A program made the translations under genes and the position numbers. The notes beneath the pieces were generated by a model. That model did not search any database. It was not told the origin of the DNA and worked only from the letters and a program-made list of their open reading frames with translations. From IMG/VR virus record IMGVR_UViG_3300027974_001530: a DNA stretch of 64,000 nucleotides, one strand, 5' to 3'. Below are positions 11,969 to 26,529 of this stretch, one piece after another (within the stretch, counting starts at the first letter, position 1; each line of letters starts with the position of its first letter). Source of the DNA: a virus (Duplodnaviria > Caudoviricetes).

Positions 11969-12478
11969 TTATCTTGGACTTGCGGACCCTCTGAATACTT
12001 TTTCAAGTTGAGCGTTAATACCACCGATATCTTGAGCTTTTTGTCGTTCATCTGCACCTAATTTAAAAGTTGCATTTGCTTGTGATGGGTTAACACCATA
12101 ATTTCCTTGTCTAACGGCATATAATTGATAGGCTAACGTTTTATCGTCTAATCCCATACCAGGTGTTGCCATATCAAACATTGAAGTATATGTGTGGTTA
12201 TCAAACCAAGGTCCGTCAAGTTTATATGTTAATATAACGTCTGGTATCTTACCTTTTTTCATCATATCGTAATAAGGTTTTCTGTTTGTAACACAACCCA
12301 AATTTTGTCCTGTTGCAGACTTTGTGTCTTTACATCCAGGAACAGTACCACCCATGTTATTGCTCGCCTTGGACATGCTCATGGATTCGTCACCAGGACC
12401 ACCCATTTCTTCTTCTCTAATTACTCGTCTTACGATTCTTGCAAGATCGGACTCAGTTAATCTGATTATTTTTTTCAT
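11969..12478 (-). CDS. tagged hypothetical protein
   Basis: MKKIIRLTESDLARIVRRVIREE tag. Confidence 0.85.
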   Translation of the reverse strand: MKKIIRLTESDLARIVRRVIREEEMGGPGDESMSMSKASNNMGGTVPGCKDTKSATGQNLGCVTNRKPYYDMMKKGKIPDVILTYKLDGPWFDNHTYTSMFDMATPGMGLDDKTLAYQLYAVRQGNYGVNPSQANATFKLGADERQKAQDIGGINAQLEKVFRGSASPR

Positions 12479-12696
12479 AATTATTTTTCTTTATTTATAA
12501 ATATATGTTATCTTAAAAAAATCATTTTTTTCATAATTAATTTATTAAGGATTCCTTTTTTCTGAGAGACCCATTAAGTAAACGACTTAAATAATTTAAA
12601 AATACCCGAAGGGGTCGGACGGTCAAAAAATTCCGACGAAGTCGGGTTCGGTTTCCGGACCCAATCAAAAAGGAAGAAAATTAAGATTTATTATAG

Positions 12697-13155
12697 TTAC
12701 CGATTAGACTCCCAAATTTCTTTTAAGTATTCATAAAAATTACTACGAATATACTGGATTATCTGATTTCTAAATATAACCTTTTCATCCCCACTTAAAT
12801 TAAGTTCGTTTGCCATTTGGCTACCAACATAATCAGATATATGTAATCTAAAATGTTCAAAAGGAGTAAATTTAAGTTCTTCATTATCAAAATTATTACG
12901 AACTATCCAATCCAATTTTTCTTTCATCATAGATTCTCTTCTACGCAAATGAAAGTTATTTTCTTTTAATATTCTAAATCTTAATAATGGTTTACCGTTA
13001 ATTGTAATATCACCCTTATCATTTTTTCCAATTGTTTTAACAACAACCTTTTTGTTTTTAAACTTACCCCCCATTATAGTGTCGCCAACTTTAATGTCAA
13101 GTTTAATCATCTCAGATAATAATCCGTATTGGTCCTCTGTAATTATTATTTTCAT
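12697..13155 (-). CDS. tagged two-module protein (small beta-barrel-like module plus RR module)
   Basis: Start reassigned to MKIIITEDQ (13155); IKVGDTIMGGKFKNKK; ILKEN junction then HLRRR. Confidence 0.8.
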   Translation of the reverse strand: MKIIITEDQYGLLSEMIKLDIKVGDTIMGGKFKNKKVVVKTIGKNDKGDITINGKPLLRFRILKENNFHLRRRESMMKEKLDWIVRNNFDNEELKFTPFEHFRLHISDYVGSQMANELNLSGDEKVIFRNQIIQYIRSNFYEYLKEIWESNR

Positions 13156-13460
13156 AATCCACCTTCCCCACATCCCTTTTTATGAATTTTATCAAAGTAT
13201 GATTTTATTTTACGAAAAAATATTTCTCTAATACTATTTTCCATCATGTATGAAAAATCATCAATCATGTCCATTGCCTTTTCCCATTCTAAATTAAGAT
13301 CAATATCAACAACTTCACGTATAACTGCAGTTGAAACATCATCAAAGTAATCATTAAATCCACCAATGTAGGTATAATCACACGGGGGATAATACATCAT
13401 CTTTTCATTAACAATTTCGTTAATGCGATCATACCTTCTTATTATAAAACTGTTATTCAT
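13152..13460 (-). CDS. RR-family protein
   Basis: FIIRRY, PPCDY; start 13460 preferred over 13487. Confidence 0.75.
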   Translation of the reverse strand: MNNSFIIRRYDRINEIVNEKMMYYPPCDYTYIGGFNDYFDDVSTAVIREVVDIDLNLEWEKAMDMIDDFSYMMENSIREIFFRKIKSYFDKIHKKGCGEGGL

Positions 13461-13467
13461 TATACTT

Positions 13468-13791
13468 TTAATTATAGTAATTTTCAAAATACTTTTTTAT
13501 AGTGTCATCATACCTTGAGTCCAAAAATCGTTTAATTGGTATAGAGAACTGTTCCCAAGTTTCATCCCCCCAACATATTTCAATACCATATTCTAAATCA
13601 AGTTTGTCATAGGTAAAATTACATACGGATTCAACAAAACTTTCAATCGAAGACCTAACACCAACCAACACTTCCATAGCTTTAATAACAATCTTATCAA
13701 GTGCATCAATATCCAACCTTCGTTTAATACAGTTAGATAATTGATAATAATCCAATGATTGTTTTTGACTTTCAGTTATAATGATTTTCAT
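13468..13791 (-). CDS. tagged RR-family protein
   Basis: Start reassigned to MKIIITESQ (13791); TATTTAT 13798-13804. Confidence 0.85.
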   Translation of the reverse strand: MKIIITESQKQSLDYYQLSNCIKRRLDIDALDKIVIKAMEVLVGVRSSIESFVESVCNFTYDKLDLEYGIEICWGDETWEQFSIPIKRFLDSRYDDTIKKYFENYYN

Positions 13792-13815
13792 ACAACAATA
13801 AATATATGGGGAAAC

Positions 13816-13843
13816 AAAAAACCCCACTGATGAGGTGGGGTTT
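13816..13843 (-). terminator. intrinsic terminator
   Basis: AAAAAACCCCAC-TGATGAG-GTGGGGTTT. Confidence 0.8.
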
Positions 13844-13860
13844 AAAATTTTAATTTTTAG

Positions 13861-14541
13861 TTAGTTTTTTTTCTTGTAGAATGTATGTGATGGGATCGGA
13901 GTTCCAACAGGGTAAGGGAAACCAACCTTAGCGGCGGTAACCGATGTCTGTCCGTTCTTTACAGGGATCGCTTTTCTCAATGGAACCGCAGCCTCATTAA
14001 GTGGACCATATACTTTAGCAAGTACAATACCTGAAGATGTTGTATCAAAGATAATCCCCGGCATAGCAAACATATTACTCTCACTTGTACTTGGTGAATC
14101 CAAGTTAATAACAAACGATCTGTTATATGGTGTCATATATTCCCACTCCTTAGTTGAAGGGTTAAATTGAGGGATAGTAGTAGTTGTATCATAATACCAA
14201 AATAAAGACCATACGGTATTACTTGTACCATCAGGAGTTTGGAAGTTTTTCTCAACATTGAACTTACCATAAGTTCCACTTACTCCTTCCATCGCCAAAC
14301 TTGAAAGAGATGGTCCGTTTAATACAGGACAGATTGCACAACCCTCGTCATACTCAACTCCTTGTACTATAATCTTTCTTCCCGTAGGAACTGCTGCCGA
14401 TGCCCCACAAAAAGCAAAAGACCCATCATGTACCATAACAATTTTATCAGACTCAACATCTTCTAACGTTTCAGTTTTTGTTTCTTTACCACAACTAAAT
14501 AACATAGTAGCAGTAACAATAAATAATAATAATTTTTTCAT
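13861..14541 (-). CDS. lipoprotein
   Basis: MKKLLLFIVTATMLFSC lipoprotein-type signal. Confidence 0.8.
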   Translation of the reverse strand: MKKLLLFIVTATMLFSCGKETKTETLEDVESDKIVMVHDGSFAFCGASAAVPTGRKIIVQGVEYDEGCAICPVLNGPSLSSLAMEGVSGTYGKFNVEKNFQTPDGTSNTVWSLFWYYDTTTTIPQFNPSTKEWEYMTPYNRSFVINLDSPSTSESNMFAMPGIIFDTTSSGIVLAKVYGPLNEAAVPLRKAIPVKNGQTSVTAAKVGFPYPVGTPIPSHTFYKKKN

Positions 14542-14580
14542 AAGTTTTTTATTATAAATATAAACATATAAAGTAAAAAG

Positions 14581-14609
14581 AAAACCCCACTCTTATTAGA
14601 GAATGGGGT
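14581..14609 (-). terminator. intrinsic terminator
   Basis: AAAACCCCACTCT...AGAATGGGGT. Confidence 0.7.
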
Positions 14610-14631
14610 AATTATCGTTTTTATTCTGTGG

Positions 14632-15372
14632 TTATAATCTTCTTGTCAATCTTACTGCATGACGACTAATATTACGGTCTTCACTTCCTCTTAAACTATA
14701 AAGATCGTCCATAATTTCTTCATCAGTTGCGTCACTAGATACGTTACCATATCTAAACACGAAATCTTTAATTTCATTTGGTAAATTTGACATATCAATC
14801 TCTCCATCATCTGCAGATTCTTTAATAACCCTTTTAATAAGTCTTGTTAAATCCGATTCTGTTAGTCTTATAATTTTTTTCATACTTTCATAAAGTTTTC
14901 CATATTTATTTTGTATCCTACGAACCTCCTCCCAATCTTGGGAATCAATCGCAGAATTTAACATGTCATTATATTCTGATTTTGATGGCATGTATTCTTT
15001 TTCATTTTCAATTCCAAGATACGATAATTTTGTATCATCATAGGCGGTTTTAATATAAGGTGAAACATTATTTTCAATTTCCTCAACTGAATCAAAAAAG
15101 GTTGGTTTTAAAACAATACCTTCACTTGATTTTACATATAAAAGATATTTAAACTCACCGTTAGAAAAATTACATAATCCAACATAAACTGTAACATTAC
15201 CCATATTAAAGTTTACCATTAGAGTATCTTTTTCTCCATCTTTATTTATATCAGCATAACTTTTGTCTGAGTTTGAATCCATTCCTATGGAATATAGAAA
15301 ATTAAATAGTTCTTCTTTTCTATCCAAAAATTCATAGTCCTGAAATACATTTTCAAATATAAGTCTTCTCAT
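14632..15372 (-). CDS. two-module protein with an internal MKKIIRLTESDL tag
   Basis: Internal tag with its own ATG at 14883. Confidence 0.85.
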   Translation of the reverse strand: MRRLIFENVFQDYEFLDRKEELFNFLYSIGMDSNSDKSYADINKDGEKDTLMVNFNMGNVTVYVGLCNFSNGEFKYLLYVKSSEGIVLKPTFFDSVEEIENNVSPYIKTAYDDTKLSYLGIENEKEYMPSKSEYNDMLNSAIDSQDWEEVRRIQNKYGKLYESMKKIIRLTESDLTRLIKRVIKESADDGEIDMSNLPNEIKDFVFRYGNVSSDATDEEIMDDLYSLRGSEDRNISRHAVRLTRRL

Positions 15373-15433
15373 AATATTATTTTAATTATAAATATACCGA
15401 ACTATAAAATAAAGATGGGGTTGTGTTTATACA

Positions 15434-15474
15434 AACGAGAGTAATAAACGCCCTTGTTTAAAGAACGAGAGTAA
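15434..15474 (+). repeat. 11-bp direct repeat pair, period 30
   Basis: AACGAGAGTAA at 15434 and 15464 in an intergenic gap. Confidence 0.7.
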
Positions 15475-15477
15475 ATG

Positions 15478-15852
15478 TTACCCCATTGATTTTCTTTTTT
15501 CCCAAGATTGTAATATCATATCCTTATATCGTTTTTCAAGAAAGGGGATTATTTTCCAATATATCTCCATAGCTCTATTTCTACTTAGGTCTACATAAAC
15601 TTCCCCATACTCAGGATCGTGTTCGGTTTCAATTTCATCGTACTTTTCGTGTAAAACAAATTCGTGAACAAGGTTAGTGATTATAGAATTTAAATAATCC
15701 TCAAAATCATTATAAACCGGGATATACCTCATATTAAGTATTACTTCTTTATCAAGATACTCCAAGTCCTTTCGAGTTATTCTTCTTTTAAGAAGAACAG
15801 GAAGATCCTTAAATAATTGTTCGTACTGATTTTCTGTAATTATGATTTTCAC
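15478..15852 (-). CDS. tagged RR-family protein
   Basis: MKIIITENQ; LLKRRI. Confidence 0.85.
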   Translation of the reverse strand: MKIIITENQYEQLFKDLPVLLKRRITRKDLEYLDKEVILNMRYIPVYNDFEDYLNSIITNLVHEFVLHEKYDEIETEHDPEYGEVYVDLSRNRAMEIYWKIIPFLEKRYKDMILQSWEKRKSMG

Positions 15853-15857
15853 ATTAT

Positions 15858-16250
15858 TTAATTTTCAGTATAAAATTTCATATTATAATTTGAATCCATT
15901 TTAAACATAAGGGTAAATGGATGGTCGTATTTTAAATTAAACTCATCAACAAAGTTACTAATTTTATCTGAATACCTGTTTAAAACATCAACACCTTCAT
16001 CGTATTCATTTCTCCACATATAAGGATCTTTATAAAAATCCATTAAGTCCAAACTTTCTCCATCTTCCGAAACCATAAAATCAAGACCACCAAAACTATA
16101 TACCGGATCCGAAGGGAAATGAAAACTTTGTGATAATCTTCTTAACTTAAACCAAATATCCTCCCATGAAATTTCTTTAAAGTTTTCATTAACTAATCGT
16201 TTAACAATAAGAGCCAAATCTTGTTCTGTTAATCTTATAATTTTTTTCAT
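15858..16250 (-). CDS. tagged hypothetical protein
   Basis: MKKIIRLTEQDL tag. Confidence 0.85.
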   Translation of the reverse strand: MKKIIRLTEQDLALIVKRLVNENFKEISWEDIWFKLRRLSQSFHFPSDPVYSFGGLDFMVSEDGESLDLMDFYKDPYMWRNEYDEGVDVLNRYSDKISNFVDEFNLKYDHPFTLMFKMDSNYNMKFYTEN

Positions 16251-16255
16251 AATTT

Positions 16256-16984
16256 TTAACGTTGTAGTTTTGTTTTAACTTTAGACACCATATTTTGTAT
16301 TCCTTGTTTGGCCTTGTCAACCACAGGTGCCGCAAGTGATTTAAGTTCTTGACCAACAATCTTAACTTGTCCTTTTAAATCTGCATTATTAAAATTTTGA
16401 TATTTTTGAGCGGTAATACCCATAGCATAGAAGTCCTTCATGTAGTTGTAAATGTTTGTGGTTTCCTTTGATTGTCCTAAAGTTGTAAGATTAAGATCCC
16501 CCAGACTAGATCTCCACATATAGAATCCTGGTTTTTTTTCTGTGGGACCACTAGTTGTCATCTCCCACTTATCTTTTCTAGATAAGGTATTTAAAAACTC
16601 CTTATCTTCTTCAGTTGGTTTAGTATAAATCGGACCAACATATTTTCCACTCTGATCAACACCAGTAAATGTGGTTAGTAGATCAGGTGTAATCTTTTCA
16701 ACATTAAGATCAACTGCCGACTGATAATCTATTAAAATTAGTTTATAATATTTCTGTTGTTGAGAATCAACCTGTAGTTGAAATGAAAGTGAAAGAGTTC
16801 CTTTTTTGGCTTCAACAAGTTTAGCGTTAGAATTATTAATAGTAAAACCGTTTTTCTTTAGGTCTTCAAAAATTTCATTCGAAAAGTCTTTAACTTCTTG
16901 TTCAGAAATAAGTGGCCTAACATCCCCCATTGTGGATTCCATCAATTGGTTAAATCTATTTTTATAATCTCGAATTGTGTTCAT
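16256..16984 (-). CDS. tagged hypothetical protein
   Basis: LMESTMGDVRPLISEQ shared with 16995..17435; start 16984. Confidence 0.8.
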   Translation of the reverse strand: MNTIRDYKNRFNQLMESTMGDVRPLISEQEVKDFSNEIFEDLKKNGFTINNSNAKLVEAKKGTLSLSFQLQVDSQQQKYYKLILIDYQSAVDLNVEKITPDLLTTFTGVDQSGKYVGPIYTKPTEEDKEFLNTLSRKDKWEMTTSGPTEKKPGFYMWRSSLGDLNLTTLGQSKETTNIYNYMKDFYAMGITAQKYQNFNNADLKGQVKIVGQELKSLAAPVVDKAKQGIQNMVSKVKTKLQR

Positions 16985-16994
16985 ATTATTTTTA

Positions 16995-17435
16995 TTAATC
17001 AATCTTTAGTGAATTTAGTGAAGATGAAGACATAGATGTACTTAATGCTGATGGTGAGGTATTTGTGGGGGTAAATTTCACATTTTTCTTAATGGACTCC
17101 AATCCAGCTCCCGTGGCCTCCACAGGTTTAGGGTATTTTTTATTTGCCGGAGTATTTGGTTGTCCCATAAAATAATATTTGCCAGTTAAAGGCAGATAAA
17201 TGTAGATGTAATTCTTATCGTGAGTTTTATTAATTATAGGACGCATTGATTTTTGTGTTTGAGTTCCTCCAGATGTGGTAACAGTACCTCCCGTTGTTTG
17301 TGTAGATCCTGTGGTAACAGTTCCCCCTGTAGTTTGAGTGGTTCCTGACTGTTCCATTATTAACGGTCTAACATCACCCATTGTGGATTCCATTAAGTTG
17401 TAAAATCTTTTTTTATAATCGTTAATGTTTTTCAT
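16995..17435 (-). CDS. tagged protein with Thr/Gly-rich linker
   Basis: LMESTMGDVRPLIMEQ; (TQTTGGTVTT) repeats. Confidence 0.85.
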   Translation of the reverse strand: MKNINDYKKRFYNLMESTMGDVRPLIMEQSGTTQTTGGTVTTGSTQTTGGTVTTSGGTQTQKSMRPIINKTHDKNYIYIYLPLTGKYYFMGQPNTPANKKYPKPVEATGAGLESIKKNVKFTPTNTSPSALSTSMSSSSLNSLKID

Positions 17436-17471
17436 ATTATTTTTATTAATAAATACATGGGACTTACAAAG

Positions 17472-17663
17472 TTATTTAACCTTTAAACTATTATGATCCA
17501 ATAAAAAATCATATAGTTCATCCTTGGTTGGAATTTCCATTAGATTAAATGTCTTTATGTATTCATCCGATAGATGATTTGGTACGTGGACAATCTCAAT
17601 TTGATTGACTTCATTAATAACCATAATGTTCATATGGTTTTTTCTTCTTCTGACTTTACGCAT
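17472..17663 (-). CDS. small hypothetical protein
   Basis: ORF track; TATTTAT at 17681-17687. Confidence 0.65.
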   Translation of the reverse strand: MRKVRRRKNHMNIMVINEVNQIEIVHVPNHLSDEYIKTFNLMEIPTKDELYDFLLDHNSLKVK

Positions 17664-17782
17664 AATTTTGTTATATACAAATAAATATCAAAATTTTCCA
17701 AAAATTTTTTTTAGAAATGGGGGGTTAATTAAAATAGGGGGTCGACTTTACAGATTAGAAGGGTTTTACTTTACATATTATA

Positions 17783-18061
17783 TTAACAATTACGTTCGTA
17801 GTATATTTCAGTTAACTCAACATAGAACATATCCTTTAGTTCAGACATAATCCCATCGTAGTCAAAATCATCCATCAAATAATATACAGGGTGAAGTTCA
17901 TCCATCATAATGTTTACAAATCTTCTTTCGTATTCATCAAAAGATTTAAACTTACAAGGAGTAATAGTGTCAAGGGTTTCTTCAAAACTATTCTCAACTA
18001 ACTTATATCTTCTTAGTAACCACCATCTATTATTTTGTGCTTCCGTAATAATAATCCTCAT
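17783..18061 (-). CDS. tagged RR-family protein
   Basis: MRIIITEAQ; WLLRRY; TPCKF. Confidence 0.85.
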   Translation of the reverse strand: MRIIITEAQNNRWWLLRRYKLVENSFEETLDTITPCKFKSFDEYERRFVNIMMDELHPVYYLMDDFDYDGIMSELKDMFYVELTEIYYERNC

Positions 18062-18193
18062 AGTAATAAATATACCACCAATTAGTATGGGGGAATATTT
18101 CCGATTTTTCCCAAAAATTTTTCCAGAATTTTTTTACGAATATTTCATTTTTGGGATTGAACCCCCTTTTCCCCCTGTCAATATGTCATATAA

Positions 18194-18249
18194 GGGGGCA
18201 TACGGGAGGGGGGAGGGGGTAGTTCTTATATACCCCCATAGGGGAGGGG
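18194..18249 (+). other. G-tract cluster (potential G-quadruplex)
   Basis: G5-CATAC-G3-A-G6-A-G5, then G4-A-G4, in an otherwise very AT-rich genome. Confidence 0.6.
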
Positions 18250-18356
18250 TATGCCAAACCCATTTGACCCCCGTCCTATGTCAGTCTGTCATGTTGATAA
18301 CTTTATGATCCCCTATGGGTTGTTAATATCTTTTAATGAATAAACATGGGGGATAG

Positions 18357-18388
18357 TTTGGTGGTGTCAATTAAATCCCGTACCTTTA
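18357..18388 (+). promoter_or_regulatory. near-consensus sigma-A promoter (TTTG-N20-TACCTTTA)
   Basis: One mismatch to TAnnTTTG; precedes the candidate ncRNA. Confidence 0.45.
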
Positions 18389-18392
18389 TATT

Positions 18393-18565
18393 GTCAGTGG
18401 TTCATATACCGAGACGGGTCAGGGAAACAAGTTCTTCTCTAAGAGGGTAGACTCCACCCTGCTTTATATTATAGTATGGGGAAAAGTATAAGGCAGGTTG
18501 GAGTCCACTTGCTTCTCATCTTTCAGAGTAGTCGTCTAGAGTATAACCCCCAAACCAATACTCTA
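18393..18565 (+). ncRNA. candidate structured non-coding RNA, unknown class
   Basis: Nested stems found by eye (20-bp 18450-69/18486-505; 18422-32/18507-17; 18412-17/18532-37; 18537-44/18558-65) downstream of a near-consensus promoter. Confidence 0.45.
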
Positions 18566-18746
18566 AGATACGATATATATTTGACATGGCAAAACAATTA
18601 GGCATAAAAAAATTCCCCATCATAAATAGGAAAGTGACATTGTTATTTGGTTGACCTCATCTTAATCTTTATGGTCCCTTGGGATCCTGATTAACTAACT
18701 CCCTACTGTGGGGAAAATAAGTTCTATAATAAATATAACGTAGATC

Positions 18747-18777
18747 TTGAAAAGGTAAATTGTATCCATTATATTTG
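18747..18777 (+). promoter_or_regulatory. sigma-A promoter, leaderless type
   Basis: TTG-N20-TATATTTG-N4-ATG. Confidence 0.7.
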
Positions 18778-18781
18778 TACC

Positions 18782-18934
18782 ATGGAAAATCTTTTAACTG
18801 TATATCTTATTCTTATCTGTCTCTTACTTTGGGGGATGACACTGTGTGCCTTCTTCTTGAAATACTTCCCCAAGTCAAAGGTCTCAGACTTTATTCGTCG
18901 TCACATTGTAGATGAGATTGATGATCATGAATAA
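18782..18934 (+). CDS. 50-aa single-pass membrane protein
   Basis: Manual translation MENLLTVYLILICLLLWGMTLCAFFLKYFPKSKVSDFIRRHIVDEIDDHE; TTG-N20-TATATTTG promoter 4 nt upstream. Confidence 0.7.
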   Translation: MENLLTVYLILICLLLWGMTLCAFFLKYFPKSKVSDFIRRHIVDEIDDHE

Positions 18935-19202
18935 GACTGAGGGAATAGTCCTGTAGTTCAGATCCTATCTTATTGAAGTCCCCATCTTTTACCATCCCTT
19001 GTTGATACATATACTCTATTACATCTCCCATGTCTGCTGACTGTAGTGTGTAGAACCTTTGTCTTATTGGTTTATTCTGCCCCACAATGTTGTGTTCTTT
19101 GTACACACACGTGCCAGAAAAGTTATGGTGACAATATGTCAGGGTTATGGTATCACCACTTTTGTTAATAACTTTATTGAAAACTTCTAATAACTGTGTC
19201 AT
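18891..19202 (-). CDS. hypothetical protein
   Basis: ORF track; 3' end overlaps the convergent small gene. Confidence 0.5.
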   Translation of the reverse strand: MTQLLEVFNKVINKSGDTITLTYCHHNFSGTCVYKEHNIVGQNKPIRQRFYTLQSADMGDVIEYMYQQGMVKDGDFNKIGSELQDYSLSLIHDHQSHLQCDDE

Positions 19203-19773
19203 AAGGGGGAATTGTTAATAAATAAATATGTTAATTTTCTTGTTTTTGTCAAAATGTCATGCTCGTTCGCGTCACTACACAATGCTTTTCCCACTTTCTA
19301 CCACTTATATTATGGTATATACTTACCACTTCTTCCCACCACTATTGGTCCTGTTGCTATCGTAAGAGTTAAAAAAACCCTTCTAGTGGTACCTGTAGAG
19401 GGGATTTTTTTACTATAGACAAACTCCAGCGAAAAACATCTAGTTATGGTACAGTAGCCGTGGACAGACATTTATGTCGTTAGTAGATCACTTATAGATA
19501 ACTTCAACGAACCATAAGTGTCCAACTTATGACCCTTTTAACCTTTGACCCCATAACAATAGACAACTTATATAGACATGTAAACATATTATTAAGTGGT
19601 AATAAGCGGTAATAAGTGGGGAACATAATGTATTTTATACTACTCATTGTTCCCCCTTCATCTACCAACTAATAACACACCATAACAATTACCTCATCAA
19701 GACCATTGGTCTTACATACAATTACACATAATGTGTTACACAAAATGTATATTAATTTTGTCTACTTAATAGG

Positions 19774-19811
19774 GACCGATTAAATGGTGAGGTCGAAGAC
19801 CGATTAAATGG
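19774..19811 (+). repeat. 14-bp direct repeats flanking a GGTC-GAA-GACC hairpin
   Basis: GACCGATTAAATGG at 19774 and 19798. Confidence 0.85.
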
Positions 19812-19919
19812 AGAACGAAACGAAGTGTAGTGATTAAAAGGGGGGGACTTATTATAAGGTTATATCCTTACATTACTGTTTAAGATATGTCCCAATAATT
19901 ACCACATATCCTTTATAGA

Positions 19920-19970
19920 AAGGTAAAGATTACTCTTGTTTTTAATACGAAGGTAAAGATTACTCTTGTT
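19920..19970 (+). repeat. 21-bp direct repeat pair, period 30
   Basis: AAGGTAAAGATTACTCTTGTT at 19920 and 19950. Confidence 0.9.
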
Positions 19971-20098
19971 AAGAGTATAAGATTAAATTATGAGGTGAAT
20001 TCCGTAGTGATAACGGAGGACTATGAACCGAATGAATTAATCTTATACTGAACCATTATTTGTTCTTGTAGTTTCATATCATATAATTATCAATTTAC

Positions 20099-20452
20099 TC
20101 ATCTTTTATTTTTATGATATAATTTGTAAATTTCATCAGAATAATTTCCTTGAATATACTCCGCTAATACATTGTAATATGTGTCATATACCTTATCAAC
20201 AACTGACTGATCATATTTTTCATCTTCTTCATCTACAGTATAACCAATACTATCAATATAATCCGACAATAAATCATTTATTATTAAATCGGAAATTTCA
20301 TCAATAAGAGTTCTAAAACTACCTTTTAAATTGTGGTTACCATATGCTAATAAAATATTATTAACATATCCATCAATTCTTCTCAACATAGACGTTGGAA
20401 TAACTTCAGTTTCTTCAATCAGTATTCTTCTTATGTGTTCTTGTAGTTTCAT
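20099..20452 (-). CDS. tagged RR-family protein
   Basis: MKLQEHIRRILIEE; MLRRI. Confidence 0.85.
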   Translation of the reverse strand: MKLQEHIRRILIEETEVIPTSMLRRIDGYVNNILLAYGNHNLKGSFRTLIDEISDLIINDLLSDYIDSIGYTVDEEDEKYDQSVVDKVYDTYYNVLAEYIQGNYSDEIYKLYHKNKR

Positions 20453-20820
20453 ATTATTTCATTGTATCTTTCTTTTATTCTACTCCCATAATTTTTAAGA
20501 AGTGGTTTTCTAATTTTATCATAATAGAAATCGTCGTCCTCAAAATATATACGATTATCATCATTAAAATAATCTTGTTCTAAATATGTTACCATCTCAT
20601 CAATTACAAATTTAGCAAATAATCTTAATGTAGTTCCCTTTTCTTTATATATTACCGAATTTGGGTTTTCCATTGATCCTCCCATTCTATCTAACGCCGA
20701 TTCAAAAGCCTCTTCTATATTTTCAGCCGATACTCTTCTTCTAATAATTAAAGGTATATCGGATTCATTAATCGCCCCCATCATTGATTGTATCCTTGAT
20801 ATTTGTTCTTGTAGGTTCAT
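20449..20820 (-). CDS. tagged RR-family protein
   Basis: MNLQEQISRI...INES; IIRRRV. Confidence 0.85.
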   Translation of the reverse strand: MNLQEQISRIQSMMGAINESDIPLIIRRRVSAENIEEAFESALDRMGGSMENPNSVIYKEKGTTLRLFAKFVIDEMVTYLEQDYFNDDNRIYFEDDDFYYDKIRKPLLKNYGSRIKERYNEII

Positions 20821-21596
20821 TACTCTTTTATTTCAGGGAGTTTAGTGTCCTTCATAAATTTATTATGTGATGCTTTGTATGATTTTTGTGTCTCGTCATT
20901 CTCATCTTTGGTGTATTGCCAGTTCCAATATAAATTATCGTTTGGTTTGAACCCGTAGAATTCATGTACTTCTTTTTGTATTTTGGTTACATTCTCACCA
21001 TTCCAATTCTGTCCCACACAAATAAATCCTGTTTCAATATCTTTGATAATGTTAGATTCACCCAATGTTGTATGTCTATTCTCCAACCAGTTTAATCTCT
21101 CAATTAAATTTTGGTAATACATATTTGCTTGTCCCCATCTTATTGAACTAAAAAATATAACTGCGTCTGACTCAAATAACTCTTTTGATATCTTCCACAA
21201 CTCATCTGAAGGTTCATTAATATTAACCCAACATCTGTGATCCCCTGATGGGTTCTTTTTCTTATCTTTAAGTGCGGCTTTTAATACTCCACAACTGTTT
21301 CCATCTTTTCTTGATACATTACCCTCACAAGGTAATATTTTAAGTTCGGGAACATCAATCAATACTGACTTATCTCCCAACTCATCGTTCAAGTACATTG
21401 CTATCATCTTGGACTTTGGTATGTCTATATTCTTTTCATCAAAATTATATCTATTGGAACAACTAAGTAGTAATACTTTTTTCTTATCTTTAAGGATATC
21501 TAAAGTTTGTTTGATTGATTTCCATGCATCTGATTGAACCATCTCCTCAGATATCATCATTGATCTTATTTTTGATATTTGTTCTTGTAAGTTCAT
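20820..21596 (-). CDS. tagged flavodoxin-like protein (NADPH-dependent FMN reductase / iron-sulfur flavoprotein type)
   Basis: LLLSCSNR, ILPCEG, DAVIFFSSIRWG...LIERL. Confidence 0.75.
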   Translation of the reverse strand: MNLQEQISKIRSMMISEEMVQSDAWKSIKQTLDILKDKKKVLLLSCSNRYNFDEKNIDIPKSKMIAMYLNDELGDKSVLIDVPELKILPCEGNVSRKDGNSCGVLKAALKDKKKNPSGDHRCWVNINEPSDELWKISKELFESDAVIFFSSIRWGQANMYYQNLIERLNWLENRHTTLGESNIIKDIETGFICVGQNWNGENVTKIQKEVHEFYGFKPNDNLYWNWQYTKDENDETQKSYKASHNKFMKDTKLPEIKE

Positions 21597-21598
21597 AT

Positions 21599-22009
21599 TT
21601 ATATTTTTTCAAAAGTTACAAATGAAATGGTTAATGATTTTTTTTCGGTGTCATCAATAAAATCAAGTATTTTTTTTACATTTTGTACTTCTATCAATTT
21701 AACAGTTCCACTTTTACCTTTAAAATTATATCCTACTAATTTTTTACTGCCATCCCCAAAATCTTCTACAACATGATCCACATCCACAATGTTAATAAAT
21801 TTACCATTAGGTGCTTTAATTTGCATTTTGATCAAGGTTTTATTTTTGTCCTCAATTTGGAATTTGTGTGGTTCTTCTATGAGGTCCAATTTGAATTGTC
21901 TACCTAAAATTTTATCGGTACTCAAATCAATTGATTCTAATAATATTAAATCAGAATTATTATAATTTATCATTTCTCTAATTCTTTGTATGTTCTCTTG
22001 TATGTTCAT
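21599..22009 (-). CDS. tagged hypothetical protein
   Basis: Start reassigned to MNIQENIQRI (22009). Confidence 0.8.
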   Translation of the reverse strand: MNIQENIQRIREMINYNNSDLILLESIDLSTDKILGRQFKLDLIEEPHKFQIEDKNKTLIKMQIKAPNGKFINIVDVDHVVEDFGDGSKKLVGYNFKGKSGTVKLIEVQNVKKILDFIDDTEKKSLTISFVTFEKI

Positions 22010-22010
22010 A

Positions 22011-22370
22011 TTAATACTCATCATCACAGATTCTACCGTCAAATTGATTTATAAGGTAATTACCATATTTTTTAGTTAATAAGTGCCATATAATTTCTTC
22101 AATTTCTGACATTTCATGTTTAACATAAAGTTCATCACTAAAATGATTAATAAAATTAGAACTTGCAACTTCAAAAATTACATCTTTATAATCTTCAGAT
22201 GTACTATAACCACAAGGACTAATTTGATCGGTTAAACTATCAATTTGTTCATTTAGGTATTCTTTTATATCTTGGGTTTCCAGTCTTCTTAATAACCAAA
22301 TCTTATTTTTATATGACTCATTCAGATTCATCATGGATCTAATCCTTTGTATGTTTTCTTGTGGATTCAT
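22011..22370 (-). CDS. tagged RR-family protein
   Basis: MNPQENIQRI...LNES; WLLRRL; SPCGY. Confidence 0.85.
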   Translation of the reverse strand: MNPQENIQRIRSMMNLNESYKNKIWLLRRLETQDIKEYLNEQIDSLTDQISPCGYSTSEDYKDVIFEVASSNFINHFSDELYVKHEMSEIEEIIWHLLTKKYGNYLINQFDGRICDDEY

Positions 22371-24198: not shown

Positions 24199-26529
24199 TT
24201 AATATCTTTTTTTAATTTCAACAGTATGAACAATATCCAAATAAAAATCTTCAAGGTCTCTTTCACCTGATGTAATTTTATTAATAACCTCATCTCTACG
24301 ATAAGCGGTATTATCTACAATAAACTCAAGCATTTCTTCATCAGTAATATCTTCAGGTTTAACTGGTTCAGGAATACAATCGTGGTTTCTATCAAATAAA
24401 TCAACATCATCAAAATAAAAACCTGTTTCACCAACTATTTGTTCAAACTTTGGGATCATAGTATCTTCATACCATTCCTCTATTATGCTCGTCACAAAGT
24501 TTTTTCTTGCGTTAAAAATTCTCATTATCTTTTCTACTAATGTTTTTGTTATCAGTAATGAACCACTATAAAATTTACCGTCTTCGTAATAGTATATTGC
24601 GGTAATAACTTCTTTACCGTTAACACACCAATCCTCACGAAGATTACCATAGTTACGAGATTTTTTACCTATTTCTCTATTACCACCCTCAATATAATCA
24701 TCAAGAAATAATGTGATAACTTTTCTAAGACTATCTGTGGATTTAAGGTATCTTTGTCTTTGGTCTTCTTCCCTCAATACTTTTATTATGTTTTCTTTTA
24801 AATCTGTTCCCCCACCATCTAACTTATCAGTAAACCCCATAAGTTTATCAAATGCTGGATGTGACATTATTGGTTCTTTTTTCTTATCTTTCATCTGATT
24901 CCAAGTTGACGGTTTAACTTTCATATGGTTCTTAACAAGATATTTAATTTCATCAACATCCATTCCTTCAAATGATTCAATCCAATCTTTATATCTTTCA
25001 ACATAGTCCGTTGATTTATCTTCGTGTCCGTACGCCGTTGGTTGATTTGTTTTTGGATTTATTTTATATGTGTCTATCTTACCTAAGTCGTGAAATAATG
25101 CCGCCATTACCATGTTTGGATCATCAGGATAGTGATGGTAAGCTCGTTTAATAACAACAATAATATGTTTAAGAGTATTCCCTTCAGGATGCCATTCAGG
25201 ATTTTGTTTTGCCCCCCATTGTTTGAATAAAAGTTCTTTTAATTCCTTTGGTAAGTTCTTAATTAACTCCTGTGGTGTCGCATGAAGTTTTTCTTCCCTC
25301 AATACTCTTCTTATAGATTCTTGCATATTTCTTGGTTCAAATTTTTCTCTATTTTTCCAAATCTGTCCACCTTGATCTAATTGATTTCGTCCTTTTGTTT
25401 TTGAATTAACAATTGGAAGGCCAAAGTAGTCTGATATTTTTTGATATACTATTGTTGCAATTCCTTGTCCTCTATATTTTTCAGGAATAACAATATCTCC
25501 TACATATATTTCACCATCATTAATTACAATGTTCATTTGTCCAAGATCAACAACACCGTCTTCACTGGTAATATCTTGGTCGTCAACCATAATAATAATA
25601 TTTTGAATTTTACCAAAATGATTATACATATTCCGACCTAAACGAATTTGAACTCTATCTTCTTCAATTCTTGTTGATGGGTCTGAAAGTTTAAATGGGT
25701 TTCTTATGTTATTTTTATGTTCATCGGATTCCCACATTTCTCGTTTATTAATATTCTCCTGTTCTTTAATATTAAAAATAAAATGTATTCTCCATTTATT
25801 AATTATTCTATCGGAAATATTATACATAAAATCATCATAATCAATCCCTCCCCAAATACCATTAAACGTCAGATTTACATCAACTTCAAACATAGGAATT
25901 CTACTTATACCTTTTTTTATTTCTATATTTAGAATACTTATTTTATCTATAGTATCAACAACATCGCAACCATCAAACGATAACCAATCAGGGAAAGTAT
26001 CCGCATCAGGCACTTCACAAATATTTTTAATTTCATCAAGTGTTTGATCAACGATGTTTTGGAATGTCCCAATCATTGTTTTTTTATTTAACTTATTATC
26101 ATTAGTTGATTCCATTAATCCCCAATCCTTACCTGTACCTTCATGTTTTAATGTTATTGCATTTGCAGGTATGTTTTCAAATGTTACTATATGTTTTGAT
26201 CTTGATTCATAGTGTTTATCTTTATACCACTTAACATCAGGTATCATTTCAGTATTAATTTCCCATACATCGTCATCGTATGTGGAATCAAAAGACGCTC
26301 TTTTATTTGTTGAGTTGGTTGCAAAGATTGCTGGTATACATTTTTCACCGTAACCCGCATAAATTTTATAACATTCTCCAGCTCTTACTTTTAAACCTTC
26401 ATTTGTTATTTTATCTCTAACCTTTGGATTAGATTTATGTATAACAATTTTGTTTGGTATTATTTCTTTACCCGCAGGACTATATTCATCTTCCCTTAAT
26501 ATTCTTCTTATGGATTCCTGTAGGTTCAT
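24199..26529 (-). CDS. polyvalent protein: ART-like + unknown + GNAT + HD + unknown domains, separated by tag repeats
   Basis: IHKS...EGL (ART-like), YRGQGIA (GNAT), WHPEG...KH...ALFHDLGK (HD); tag at N-terminus and twice internally. Confidence 0.8.
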   Translation of the reverse strand: MNLQESIRRILREDEYSPAGKEIIPNKIVIHKSNPKVRDKITNEGLKVRAGECYKIYAGYGEKCIPAIFATNSTNKRASFDSTYDDDVWEINTEMIPDVKWYKDKHYESRSKHIVTFENIPANAITLKHEGTGKDWGLMESTNDNKLNKKTMIGTFQNIVDQTLDEIKNICEVPDADTFPDWLSFDGCDVVDTIDKISILNIEIKKGISRIPMFEVDVNLTFNGIWGGIDYDDFMYNISDRIINKWRIHFIFNIKEQENINKREMWESDEHKNNIRNPFKLSDPSTRIEEDRVQIRLGRNMYNHFGKIQNIIIMVDDQDITSEDGVVDLGQMNIVINDGEIYVGDIVIPEKYRGQGIATIVYQKISDYFGLPIVNSKTKGRNQLDQGGQIWKNREKFEPRNMQESIRRVLREEKLHATPQELIKNLPKELKELLFKQWGAKQNPEWHPEGNTLKHIIVVIKRAYHHYPDDPNMVMAALFHDLGKIDTYKINPKTNQPTAYGHEDKSTDYVERYKDWIESFEGMDVDEIKYLVKNHMKVKPSTWNQMKDKKKEPIMSHPAFDKLMGFTDKLDGGGTDLKENIIKVLREEDQRQRYLKSTDSLRKVITLFLDDYIEGGNREIGKKSRNYGNLREDWCVNGKEVITAIYYYEDGKFYSGSLLITKTLVEKIMRIFNARKNFVTSIIEEWYEDTMIPKFEQIVGETGFYFDDVDLFDRNHDCIPEPVKPEDITDEEMLEFIVDNTAYRRDEVINKITSGERDLEDFYLDIVHTVEIKKRY

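What the first reader, a model, noticed from the sequence alone, without database searches (positions are those of the whole stretch)
18357..18565. Candidate multi-stem non-coding RNA with its own promoter
Seen: after TTTG-N20-TACCTTTA, nested pairings form. P0 is 18412-17/18532-37. P1 is 18422-32/18507-17 (one mismatch). A small hairpin spans 18435-47. A 20-bp stem 18450-69/18486-505 has one mismatch and two G-U pairs, which favours the + strand. A 3' hairpin is 18537-44/18558-65. No ORF fits here, and it is not a tRNA cloverleaf. Inference: an unannotated phage sRNA, e.g. a regulatory or anti-defence decoy RNA or a packaging/replication RNA.
Basis: partly seen in the sequence, partly recalled or inferred. 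Interest (0 to 1): 0.68.

Follow-up and report, generated by a model that had tools for sequence, protein, structure and literature searches.

The report
Paired small RNAs of Bacteroidota phages
This is not one large folded RNA but two tail-to-tail copies of an apparently undescribed ~70-base RNA gene, each with its own promoter, that unrelated viruses of Flavobacterium-like bacteria share and probably use as an early decoy for a host protein.

Summary
The pairings and the + promoter are real, but the single multi-stem RNA is not supported. The 20-bp stem arises because two copies of one small-RNA gene lie tail to tail: + 18393-18467 and - 18558-18489. I found 204 distinct copies in 188 loci of unrelated Bacteroidota phages, including cultured Larrie, phiST and immuto_2-6A; about 80% have no convergent partner. 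Each folds on its own: optional 5' hairpin, covarying middle hairpin, near-invariant RRAG-N-GURGAC core, and a short GUR/URC stem around a variable 7-nt segment. G-U pairs outnumber A-C 31:7. 43% point against the next gene, so they are not leaders. No Rfam family, no host homologue in the Bacteroidota genomes searched, and no match to one Cas13b repeat or to AbiF RNAs. Best reading (inferred, 0.45): an early, trans-acting decoy for a conserved host RNA-binding protein. Transcription is not shown. One unchecked scan note on another genome (e1-3284575) may touch the same family.

The parts
18357..18388 (+). Bacteroidota sigma-A type promoter of gene A (TTTG, N20, TACCTTTA); predicted start 18393
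   Evidence: sequence; the TAnnTTTG box sits at -12 to -5 in Flavobacterium (PMC9723704); such a box lies upstream of 128/204 family copies vs 14% of control windows
18393..18467 (+). small RNA gene A (class A; ~75 nt; 3' end inferred)
   Evidence: CM R1 hit 18413-18467 (this copy was in the training set); homologues
18393..18415 (+). gene A, 5' hairpin P1 (optional in the family), starting at the predicted start site
   Evidence: three base pairs at the foot of P1: 73.9% canonical vs 47.6+-2.4% shuffled, 74 copies, types GTC/GAC, GAC/GTC, GTT/AAC, GTA/TAC
18416..18442 (+). gene A, GGG followed by hairpin P2 (U18419-A18442 foot pair; 18421-26 with 18435-40)
   Evidence: foot pair canonical in 56/56 (CG 33, UA 22, UG 1); all five P2 columns show double-sided changes
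18443..18462 (+). gene A, conserved core: RAG-N linker, GURGAC, variable 7-mer, URC; short stem P3 18447-50 with 18459-62
   Evidence: unbiased downstream read-out: AAGAGU-GA in 32/32; U2-R15 paired 83/83, G1-Y16 81/83, one-sided changes only
18447..18508 (.).
18489..18558 (-). small RNA gene B (class C; ~70 nt; 3' end inferred)
   Evidence: CM R1 hit 18488-18552, E 9.6e-5, not in the training set; same class, without this class A partner, in L120, L127, L134, L166, L201, L232
18534..18555 (-). gene B, 5' hairpin P1
   Evidence: MFE fold; same hairpin in L127 and L183
18512..18531 (-). gene B, hairpin P2 with a T-loop-like UGAAA loop
   Evidence: comparison with class C copies; a T-loop-like word occurs in 44 of 77 P2 segments of the tail-unbiased set
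18493..18511 (-). gene B, conserved core (CAA linker, GUGGAC, 7-mer, UGC)
18563..18593 (-). Bacteroidota sigma-A type promoter of gene B (TTTG, N19, TATCTTAG); predicted start 18558
   Evidence: homologues carry TATCTTTG at the same place (L183)

Best explanation
SHOWN by comparison: the region holds two convergent genes of one family of ~50-75 nt structured RNAs. Each has its own host-polymerase promoter and folds within itself (P1 optional; P2 hairpin; RAG-N linker; GURGAC...URC stem around a 7-nt variable segment), followed by an A/T-rich tail. The family is shared by unrelated phages of Bacteroidota, in 1-4 copies per locus. INFERRED: host sigma-A polymerase makes the RNAs early in infection and stops in the A/T tail or at the hairpin formed with the partner gene. 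The free RNA acts in trans as a ligand: the P2 foot, linker and GURGAC form a surface bound by a host RNA-binding protein common to Bacteroidota (a defence RNase or sensor, or a transcription/translation factor), and the RNA titrates it. The lineage-specific 7-mer and the P2 loop would tune or stabilise the fold. The target is not identified.
For: Covariation in P2 (88.6% paired vs 75.7+-1.1 shuffled, 0/500; slid controls 35-72%) and P1. G-U outnumbers A-C 31:7 in P2, as expected for RNA on the promoter's strand. Promoter box upstream of 63% of copies vs 14% control. Stand-alone: next ORF is on the opposite strand for 65 of 151 copies; 3 of 4 Larrie copies face against all 22 annotated genes nearby; 39 of 107 non-convergent copies are followed within 90 nt by a new promoter. 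The core sequence is fixed while stems change freely, the pattern of a protein- or ligand-binding RNA rather than a guide. Carriers are unrelated (77-79 kb Cbastvirus, 160 kb immuto, ~300 kb bS21-encoding phages, 40-65 kb lake contigs, a 635 kb phage), and the cultured ones infect Flavobacteriaceae, which points to a host partner. Patchy presence (9 of 80 related loci; none in a 97% complete relative) and placement among small hypothetical genes fit an accessory counter-defence or takeover gene. Precedents for phage RNA decoys: pseudo-ToxI and Racr (PMC13670838).
Against: No transcript is shown; the only RNA-run contig over the locus spans both promoters and could be DNA. Each RNA alone folds no better than shuffles (z -0.4 and -0.1). 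P3 shows only one-sided changes. No host RNA that it could imitate was found. Related sequences inflate covariation counts. No partner protein has been identified.
Confidence: 0.45

Rival explanations
1. Base-pairing small RNA: the scaffold presents the 7-nt segment (UCCAACC, UCCGUCC, GGGCCGG) or the 3' tail to a host mRNA or rRNA, for example 16S h23a-h22 or Shine-Dalgarno-like GGAG sites.
For: The 7-mer falls into a few discrete GC-rich types by lineage. The common tail is complementary over 10-11 nt to Flavobacterium-type 16S just after h23. Relatives encode bS21.
Against: Shuffled cores reach 10 nt or more in about 7% of trials. The tail is not conserved once the search bias is removed. 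The two main 7-mer types are near-complements of each other, so they cannot share one target. Invariant bases lie outside the 7-mer.
Confidence: 0.15
2. Cis-acting nascent RNA like HK022 put: it folds right after an early promoter, binds the elongating polymerase and suppresses pausing or termination.
For: Two stem-loops, ~70 nt, directly behind early promoters, several copies per genome, and an A/U-rich tract after; put has this outline (PMC9378689). Gene B points into a long minus-strand gene block.
Against: 43% of copies face against the next ORF; Larrie copies oppose all local genes; convergent pairs point at each other; many are followed by a fresh promoter.
Confidence: 0.12
3. Small-molecule aptamer or ribozyme: a compact fold that soaks up a signalling nucleotide or metabolite, or cuts itself.
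For: Fixed purine-rich junction, T-loop-like P2 loop in 44/77, free stems: riboswitch-like anatomy.
Against: No Rfam riboswitch or ribozyme match even at E up to 5-10. No expression platform and no fixed downstream gene. The core is small (about 45 nt).
Confidence: 0.12
4. DNA-level element: a protein-binding or recombination site coupled to a promoter (polymerase trap, genome-entry aid, inversion site); the transcript is incidental.
For: Lies in a 2-kb non-coding hub with conserved boxes. In L004 the promoter plus gene is inverted relative to its flanks, and the match ends at the motif. Tail-to-tail pairs are common.
Against: Compensatory changes and the 31:7 G-U bias on the promoter's strand; P1 starts exactly at the predicted start site; the element occurs behind at least three promoter types.
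Confidence: 0.1
5. One reading: one ~170-nt + strand RNA with nested P0, P1 and a 20-bp stem as the functional form.
For: All stems can form; z -2.5; read-through from the + promoter could make this transcript.
Against: Cross-gene stems are not conserved; 80% of copies lack a partner; partners mix freely between classes; the long stem would bury both conserved cores.
Confidence: 0.05

Closest known systems
Phage RNA decoys: pseudo-ToxI of phage PhiTE and RNA anti-CRISPRs (Racr) (PMC13670838)
   Same: Phage-encoded small non-coding RNAs, often in several copies, thought to act in trans by binding a host protein.
   Different: Those copy a host RNA (ToxI repeat, CRISPR repeat). Here no host counterpart was found; the model does not match the one Cas13b repeat retrieved or the AbiF RNAs; ToxN is nearly absent from the Bacteroidota sample.
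HK022 put RNA (PMC9378689)
   Same: About 70 nt, two stem-loops, directly behind early promoters, more than one copy.
   Different: put acts in cis upstream of its operon. These copies often face away from neighbouring genes or at each other. No sequence likeness was tested or seen.
c4 / c4-2 antisense RNAs of P1-like prophages (Rfam RF02944 for c4-2)
   Same: Small multi-hairpin phage RNA with fixed scaffold and variable loops.
   Different: No Rfam match; the cultured carrier Larrie is lytic; variable parts are stems with compensatory changes, not guide loops.
tRNA and tRNA-like RNAs (YrlA, theta-ribozyme-linked or pseudo-tRNA genes)
   Same: T-loop-like loop in many P2 hairpins; GGUAGAC recalls the tRNA-Leu D-loop (from memory).
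   Different: No cloverleaf, no acceptor stem or CCA end, no ARAGORN or Rfam tRNA hit; the GGG/CYU closing stem is not general.

Membership tests
Any Rfam 15 family | score at the family's gathering threshold | tested here: not met
   0 hits in the window; no near-threshold hit at the element in the window or in 33 homologous loci at E up to 5-10
tRNA / pseudo-tRNA | cloverleaf with acceptor stem and T arm | tested here: not met
   closing stem at chance level in the tail-unbiased set (g2:m17 40% vs 38% expected)
RNA anti-CRISPR (solitary repeat unit) | similarity to a host CRISPR repeat | tested here: not met
   only one Cas13b repeat retrieved; it shares a GAGGGTA..CAAC stretch with class A, but model R2 gives no hit and the CAAC part is lost in most other lineages; Cas13b in 2/201 genomes of a Flavobacterium-type family; other CRISPR types covered only through Rfam
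RNA anti-CRISPR (solitary repeat unit) | inhibits a Cas effector | not testable with these tools
   needs an interference assay
Type III antitoxin mimic (pseudo-ToxI, AbiFr-like) | resembles the cognate antitoxin RNA next to the host toxin | tested here: not met
   RNAs upstream of 16 Abi_2 genes have a different motif; ToxN 0/301 above cut-off; CptIN and TenpIN loci not examined
Type III antitoxin mimic (pseudo-ToxI, AbiFr-like) | H-type pseudoknot in tandem repeats | tested here: not met
   copies are dispersed, not tandem; the candidate AG/CU stem is broken in the GGGCCGG type
put-like cis antiterminator | directly behind an early promoter, two stem-loops | tested here: met
put-like cis antiterminator | co-oriented upstream of the genes it serves | tested here: not met
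   65 of 151 face against the next ORF; Larrie
put-like cis antiterminator | binds elongating RNA polymerase | not testable with these tools
   needs in vitro transcription
Riboswitch / ribosomal-protein leader | sits in the 5' UTR of a consistent gene class | tested here: not met
   next genes are unrelated small ORFs, often behind their own promoter or on the other strand
Packaging RNA (phi29 pRNA type) | essential, single copy, in every member of one phage family | tested here: not met
   0-4 copies, unrelated phage types, patchy in the clade
Expressed small RNA (general) | discrete transcript detected | tested here: inconclusive
   contigs only; they cannot show ends, strand or level

The most novel reading that the evidence does not exclude
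A horizontally shared RNA effector of Bacteroidota phages that does not copy any host RNA sequence but works as an evolved aptamer against a conserved host machine (an undescribed defence RNase or sensor, RNA polymerase, or the bS21-S18-S6 ribosome platform), with a swappable 7-nt module that sets specificity by lineage.
Probability: 0.2. Interest if true: 0.88.

Novelty: new variant of a known kind. Interest (0 to 1): 0.62.

Why it matters
Few phage RNAs that counter host functions are known, and the ones I compared imitate a recognisable host RNA. This family has over 200 distinct copies, crosses unrelated phage lineages that appear to share only a Bacteroidota host, has no Rfam entry and no host counterpart in the genomes searched, and is unannotated in three cultured phage-host systems (Larrie, phiST, immuto_2-6A). 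That makes it directly testable: pulling down its partner could reveal a defence or takeover target in Flavobacteria, which dominate many waters. I could not check the supplement of the largest catalogue of phage structured RNAs (PMC10690425), so a bare computational listing may exist.

Tried and rejected
Single long RNA: rejected. Rfam, tRNA, tmRNA: no hit. Closing stem GGG/CYU: 96% paired in the first, tail-biased set but at chance in the unbiased set, so not general. Tail AACCUGCCUU as invariant: an artefact of my first query. UCC as invariant, and with it the tRNA-Trp anticodon, S6:S18 CCR and H-type pseudoknot ideas: broken by the GGGCCGG type. Antisense to 16S or copy of 16S h7: 10-12 nt matches, within reach of shuffles and not conserved. 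Host homologue: CM R1 gave 0/151 genomes of a Flavobacterium-type family and only a MAG's two short contigs plus two marginal hits among 151 Bacteroidota genomes; R2 gave 12/151 at E up to 0.1, about chance; a pattern search matched the reversed control except one genome with three phage-like copies. Cas13b repeat, ToxI, AbiFr mimicry: not supported. Likenesses recalled from memory (c-di-GMP-I, FMN, TPP, SRP, sarcin-ricin flank, group I intron S element) got no Rfam support and were dropped. Expression: RNA runs X20 and X24 gave no contig over the element, X19 gave one spanning both promoters; neither is evidence. Searches used mis-registered structure strings and are void; one search is the correct one. 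No whole genome was held for the window. The supplement of PMC10690425 is not held; the Cas13b paper I tried was not held.

Full report
1. Observation. The promoter TTTG-N20-TACCTTTA (18357-18388) and all five stems are present as described. The stretch 18400-18575 folds better than shuffles on + (z -2.5) and on - (z -3.75). There is no tRNA and no Rfam family. The window is a ~30% GC phage fragment with thymidylate synthase and RNA ligase genes. It is held by freshwater DNA runs. Relatives found through the protein at 20820-21596 lie on lake contigs up to ~320 kb, and two related genomes encode bS21, as in the Bacteroidetes-infecting phages of PMC9723584.

2. The long stem is two genes. Relatives usually keep only one arm of the 20-bp stem. 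The arm is an 18-nt motif that occurs twice in the window, in opposite orientation (18448-65 on +, 18507-490 on -). Upstream of the - copy lies a second promoter, TTTG-N19-TATCTTAG at 18593-18563. With the TAnnTTTG box at -12 to -5 (PMC9723704), the starts fall at 18393 and 18558, at the foot of each gene's 5' hairpin. A covariance model finds exactly these two copies in 64 kb; the - copy was not in its training set (E 9.6e-5). Of 133 promoter-bearing copies, 26 are in such convergent pairs, and partners mix between classes. In L200 the flanks are nearly identical but gene A's hairpin is exchanged, which removes P1.

3. The family. Cultured carriers are Tenacibaculum phage Larrie (4 copies, one convergent pair), Cellulophaga phage phiST (3 weaker copies) and Flavobacterium phage immuto_2-6A (1 copy); a 635-kb uncultured phage also has one. 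None is annotated as RNA. A TAnnTTTR box lies upstream of 128/204 copies vs 14% of control windows; other lineages appear to use different promoter words. Within the window's clade presence is patchy: 9 of 80 loci, many of which may not span the region, and none in one 97% complete genome.

4. Anatomy. (a) P1, optional, from the start site: foot pairs 73.9% canonical vs 47.6+-2.4% shuffled, 0/2000. (b) R-G-Y, then P2: the foot pair is canonical in 56/56 (CG 33, UA 22) and every P2 column has double-sided changes; overall 88.6% vs 75.7+-1.1%. G-U outnumbers A-C 31:7, which favours RNA on the promoter's strand. A T-loop-like word occurs in 44/77 P2 segments. (c) Linker RAG-N and GURGAC: read without query bias downstream of P2, AAGAGU-GA is present in 32/32. 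(d) A 7-nt segment that comes in types (UCCAACC 97, UCCGUCC 33, UCCAGCC 18, GGGCCGG 12 and others; counts reflect my queries), then URC. U2-R15 pairs in 83/83 and G1-Y16 in 81/83, with one-sided changes only. (e) An A/T-rich tail (U-rich in 56, A-rich in 21 of 133). Gene A is class A (GGGU...AGAGG). Gene B is class C, with GACUA before P2 and a CAA linker. Caveats: relatives inflate covariation counts, and neither RNA alone beats shuffles in folding energy (z -0.4, -0.1).

5. Cis or trans. The next ORF is co-oriented for 86 copies and opposed for 65. In Larrie three of four copies oppose all 22 annotated genes of the region. Thirty-nine of 107 non-convergent copies are followed at once by another promoter. 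There is no constant neighbour gene. This argues for stand-alone transcripts, not leaders, riboswitches or put-like antiterminators.

6. What it might bind. Unrelated phages share it, so the partner is more likely a host factor than a phage protein (inference). I looked for a host RNA that it copies and found none: CM and pattern searches of 150-300 Bacteroidota genomes and 150 genomes of a Flavobacterium-type family gave chance-level results. These are samples of partly incomplete genomes, so this means not found, not absent. rRNA matches are short and not conserved. One Cas13b repeat and the RNAs beside 16 AbiF genes do not match, and ToxN is nearly absent. Fixed unpaired sequence with free stems fits a protein-binding RNA best. 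The decoy role rests on analogy to pseudo-ToxI and Racr (PMC13670838) and on the position behind host-type promoters among small accessory genes; it is not shown.

7. Expression. One 2017 lake metatranscriptome has a 520-nt contig over 18106-18630 and a contig of a relative's copy. These include sequence upstream of the promoters and cannot show ends or strand. Transcription remains unproven.

8. Verdict. A real feature, read differently from the first stage: two convergent members of an apparently undescribed, widespread small-RNA family of Bacteroidota phages. My confidence in the two-gene, RNA-family reading is about 0.85; in the protein-decoy mechanism about 0.45. It fails the membership tests for every known family I tried. 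It is filed as a new variant of a known kind (phage small RNA effectors), interest 0.62.

Noticed in passing
window 19185-19310: A non-coding block with TGTTAATAA and TGTCA-N3-TGTCA words has blastn matches in 72 fetched loci, many of them loci that also carry an RNA gene. Candidate origin, terminus or regulator site.
   Followed up: partly
window 18062-20098: Two-kb gap with G/C tracts, 17- to 29-nt direct repeats at 19774-19970 and only a 50-codon + ORF (18782-18934) and a 103-codon - ORF (18891-19202); GC skew does not switch here.
   Followed up: no
L100:1436-1486 (-), also L120, L127, L134, L212: A different convergent partner RNA that keeps the AACCUGCUU tail but has UUCUAAGGG in place of the GURGAC core; may be a sister family.
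   Followed up: partly
L004:17956-18060: Promoter plus RNA gene is inverted relative to its flanks compared with the window, and the match ends at the motif. The pair may be a rearrangement hot spot.
   Followed up: no
L241:4957-5010: A perfect hairpin is inserted in the core with a duplicated TGGACTCC on both sides; this locus holds five copies.
   Followed up: no
window 18600-18611 (DNA run X8, record 25): A relative carries a 182-nt insertion right behind gene B's promoter.
   Followed up: no
L510-L521, upstream of Abi_2 genes: A conserved promoter-hairpin-U tract (CC..GC, CCC, AGAACAGC) precedes many AbiF genes in a Flavobacterium-type family, likely their antitoxin RNA.
   Followed up: partly
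window 24199-26529: 776-aa ORF with an internal tRNA-nucleotidyltransferase-like segment (PHROG 2244, E 2e-5) among other domains.
   Followed up: no
window 11969-22370: Many minus-strand ORFs begin with near-identical leaders (MKKIIRLTESDL, MKIIITE, MNLQE), possibly a shared targeting signal.
   Followed up: no
G302 contig C5 (L306): Three family copies on one contig of a Bacteroidota genome; probably a prophage or mis-binned phage, and a possible host link.
   Followed up: partly
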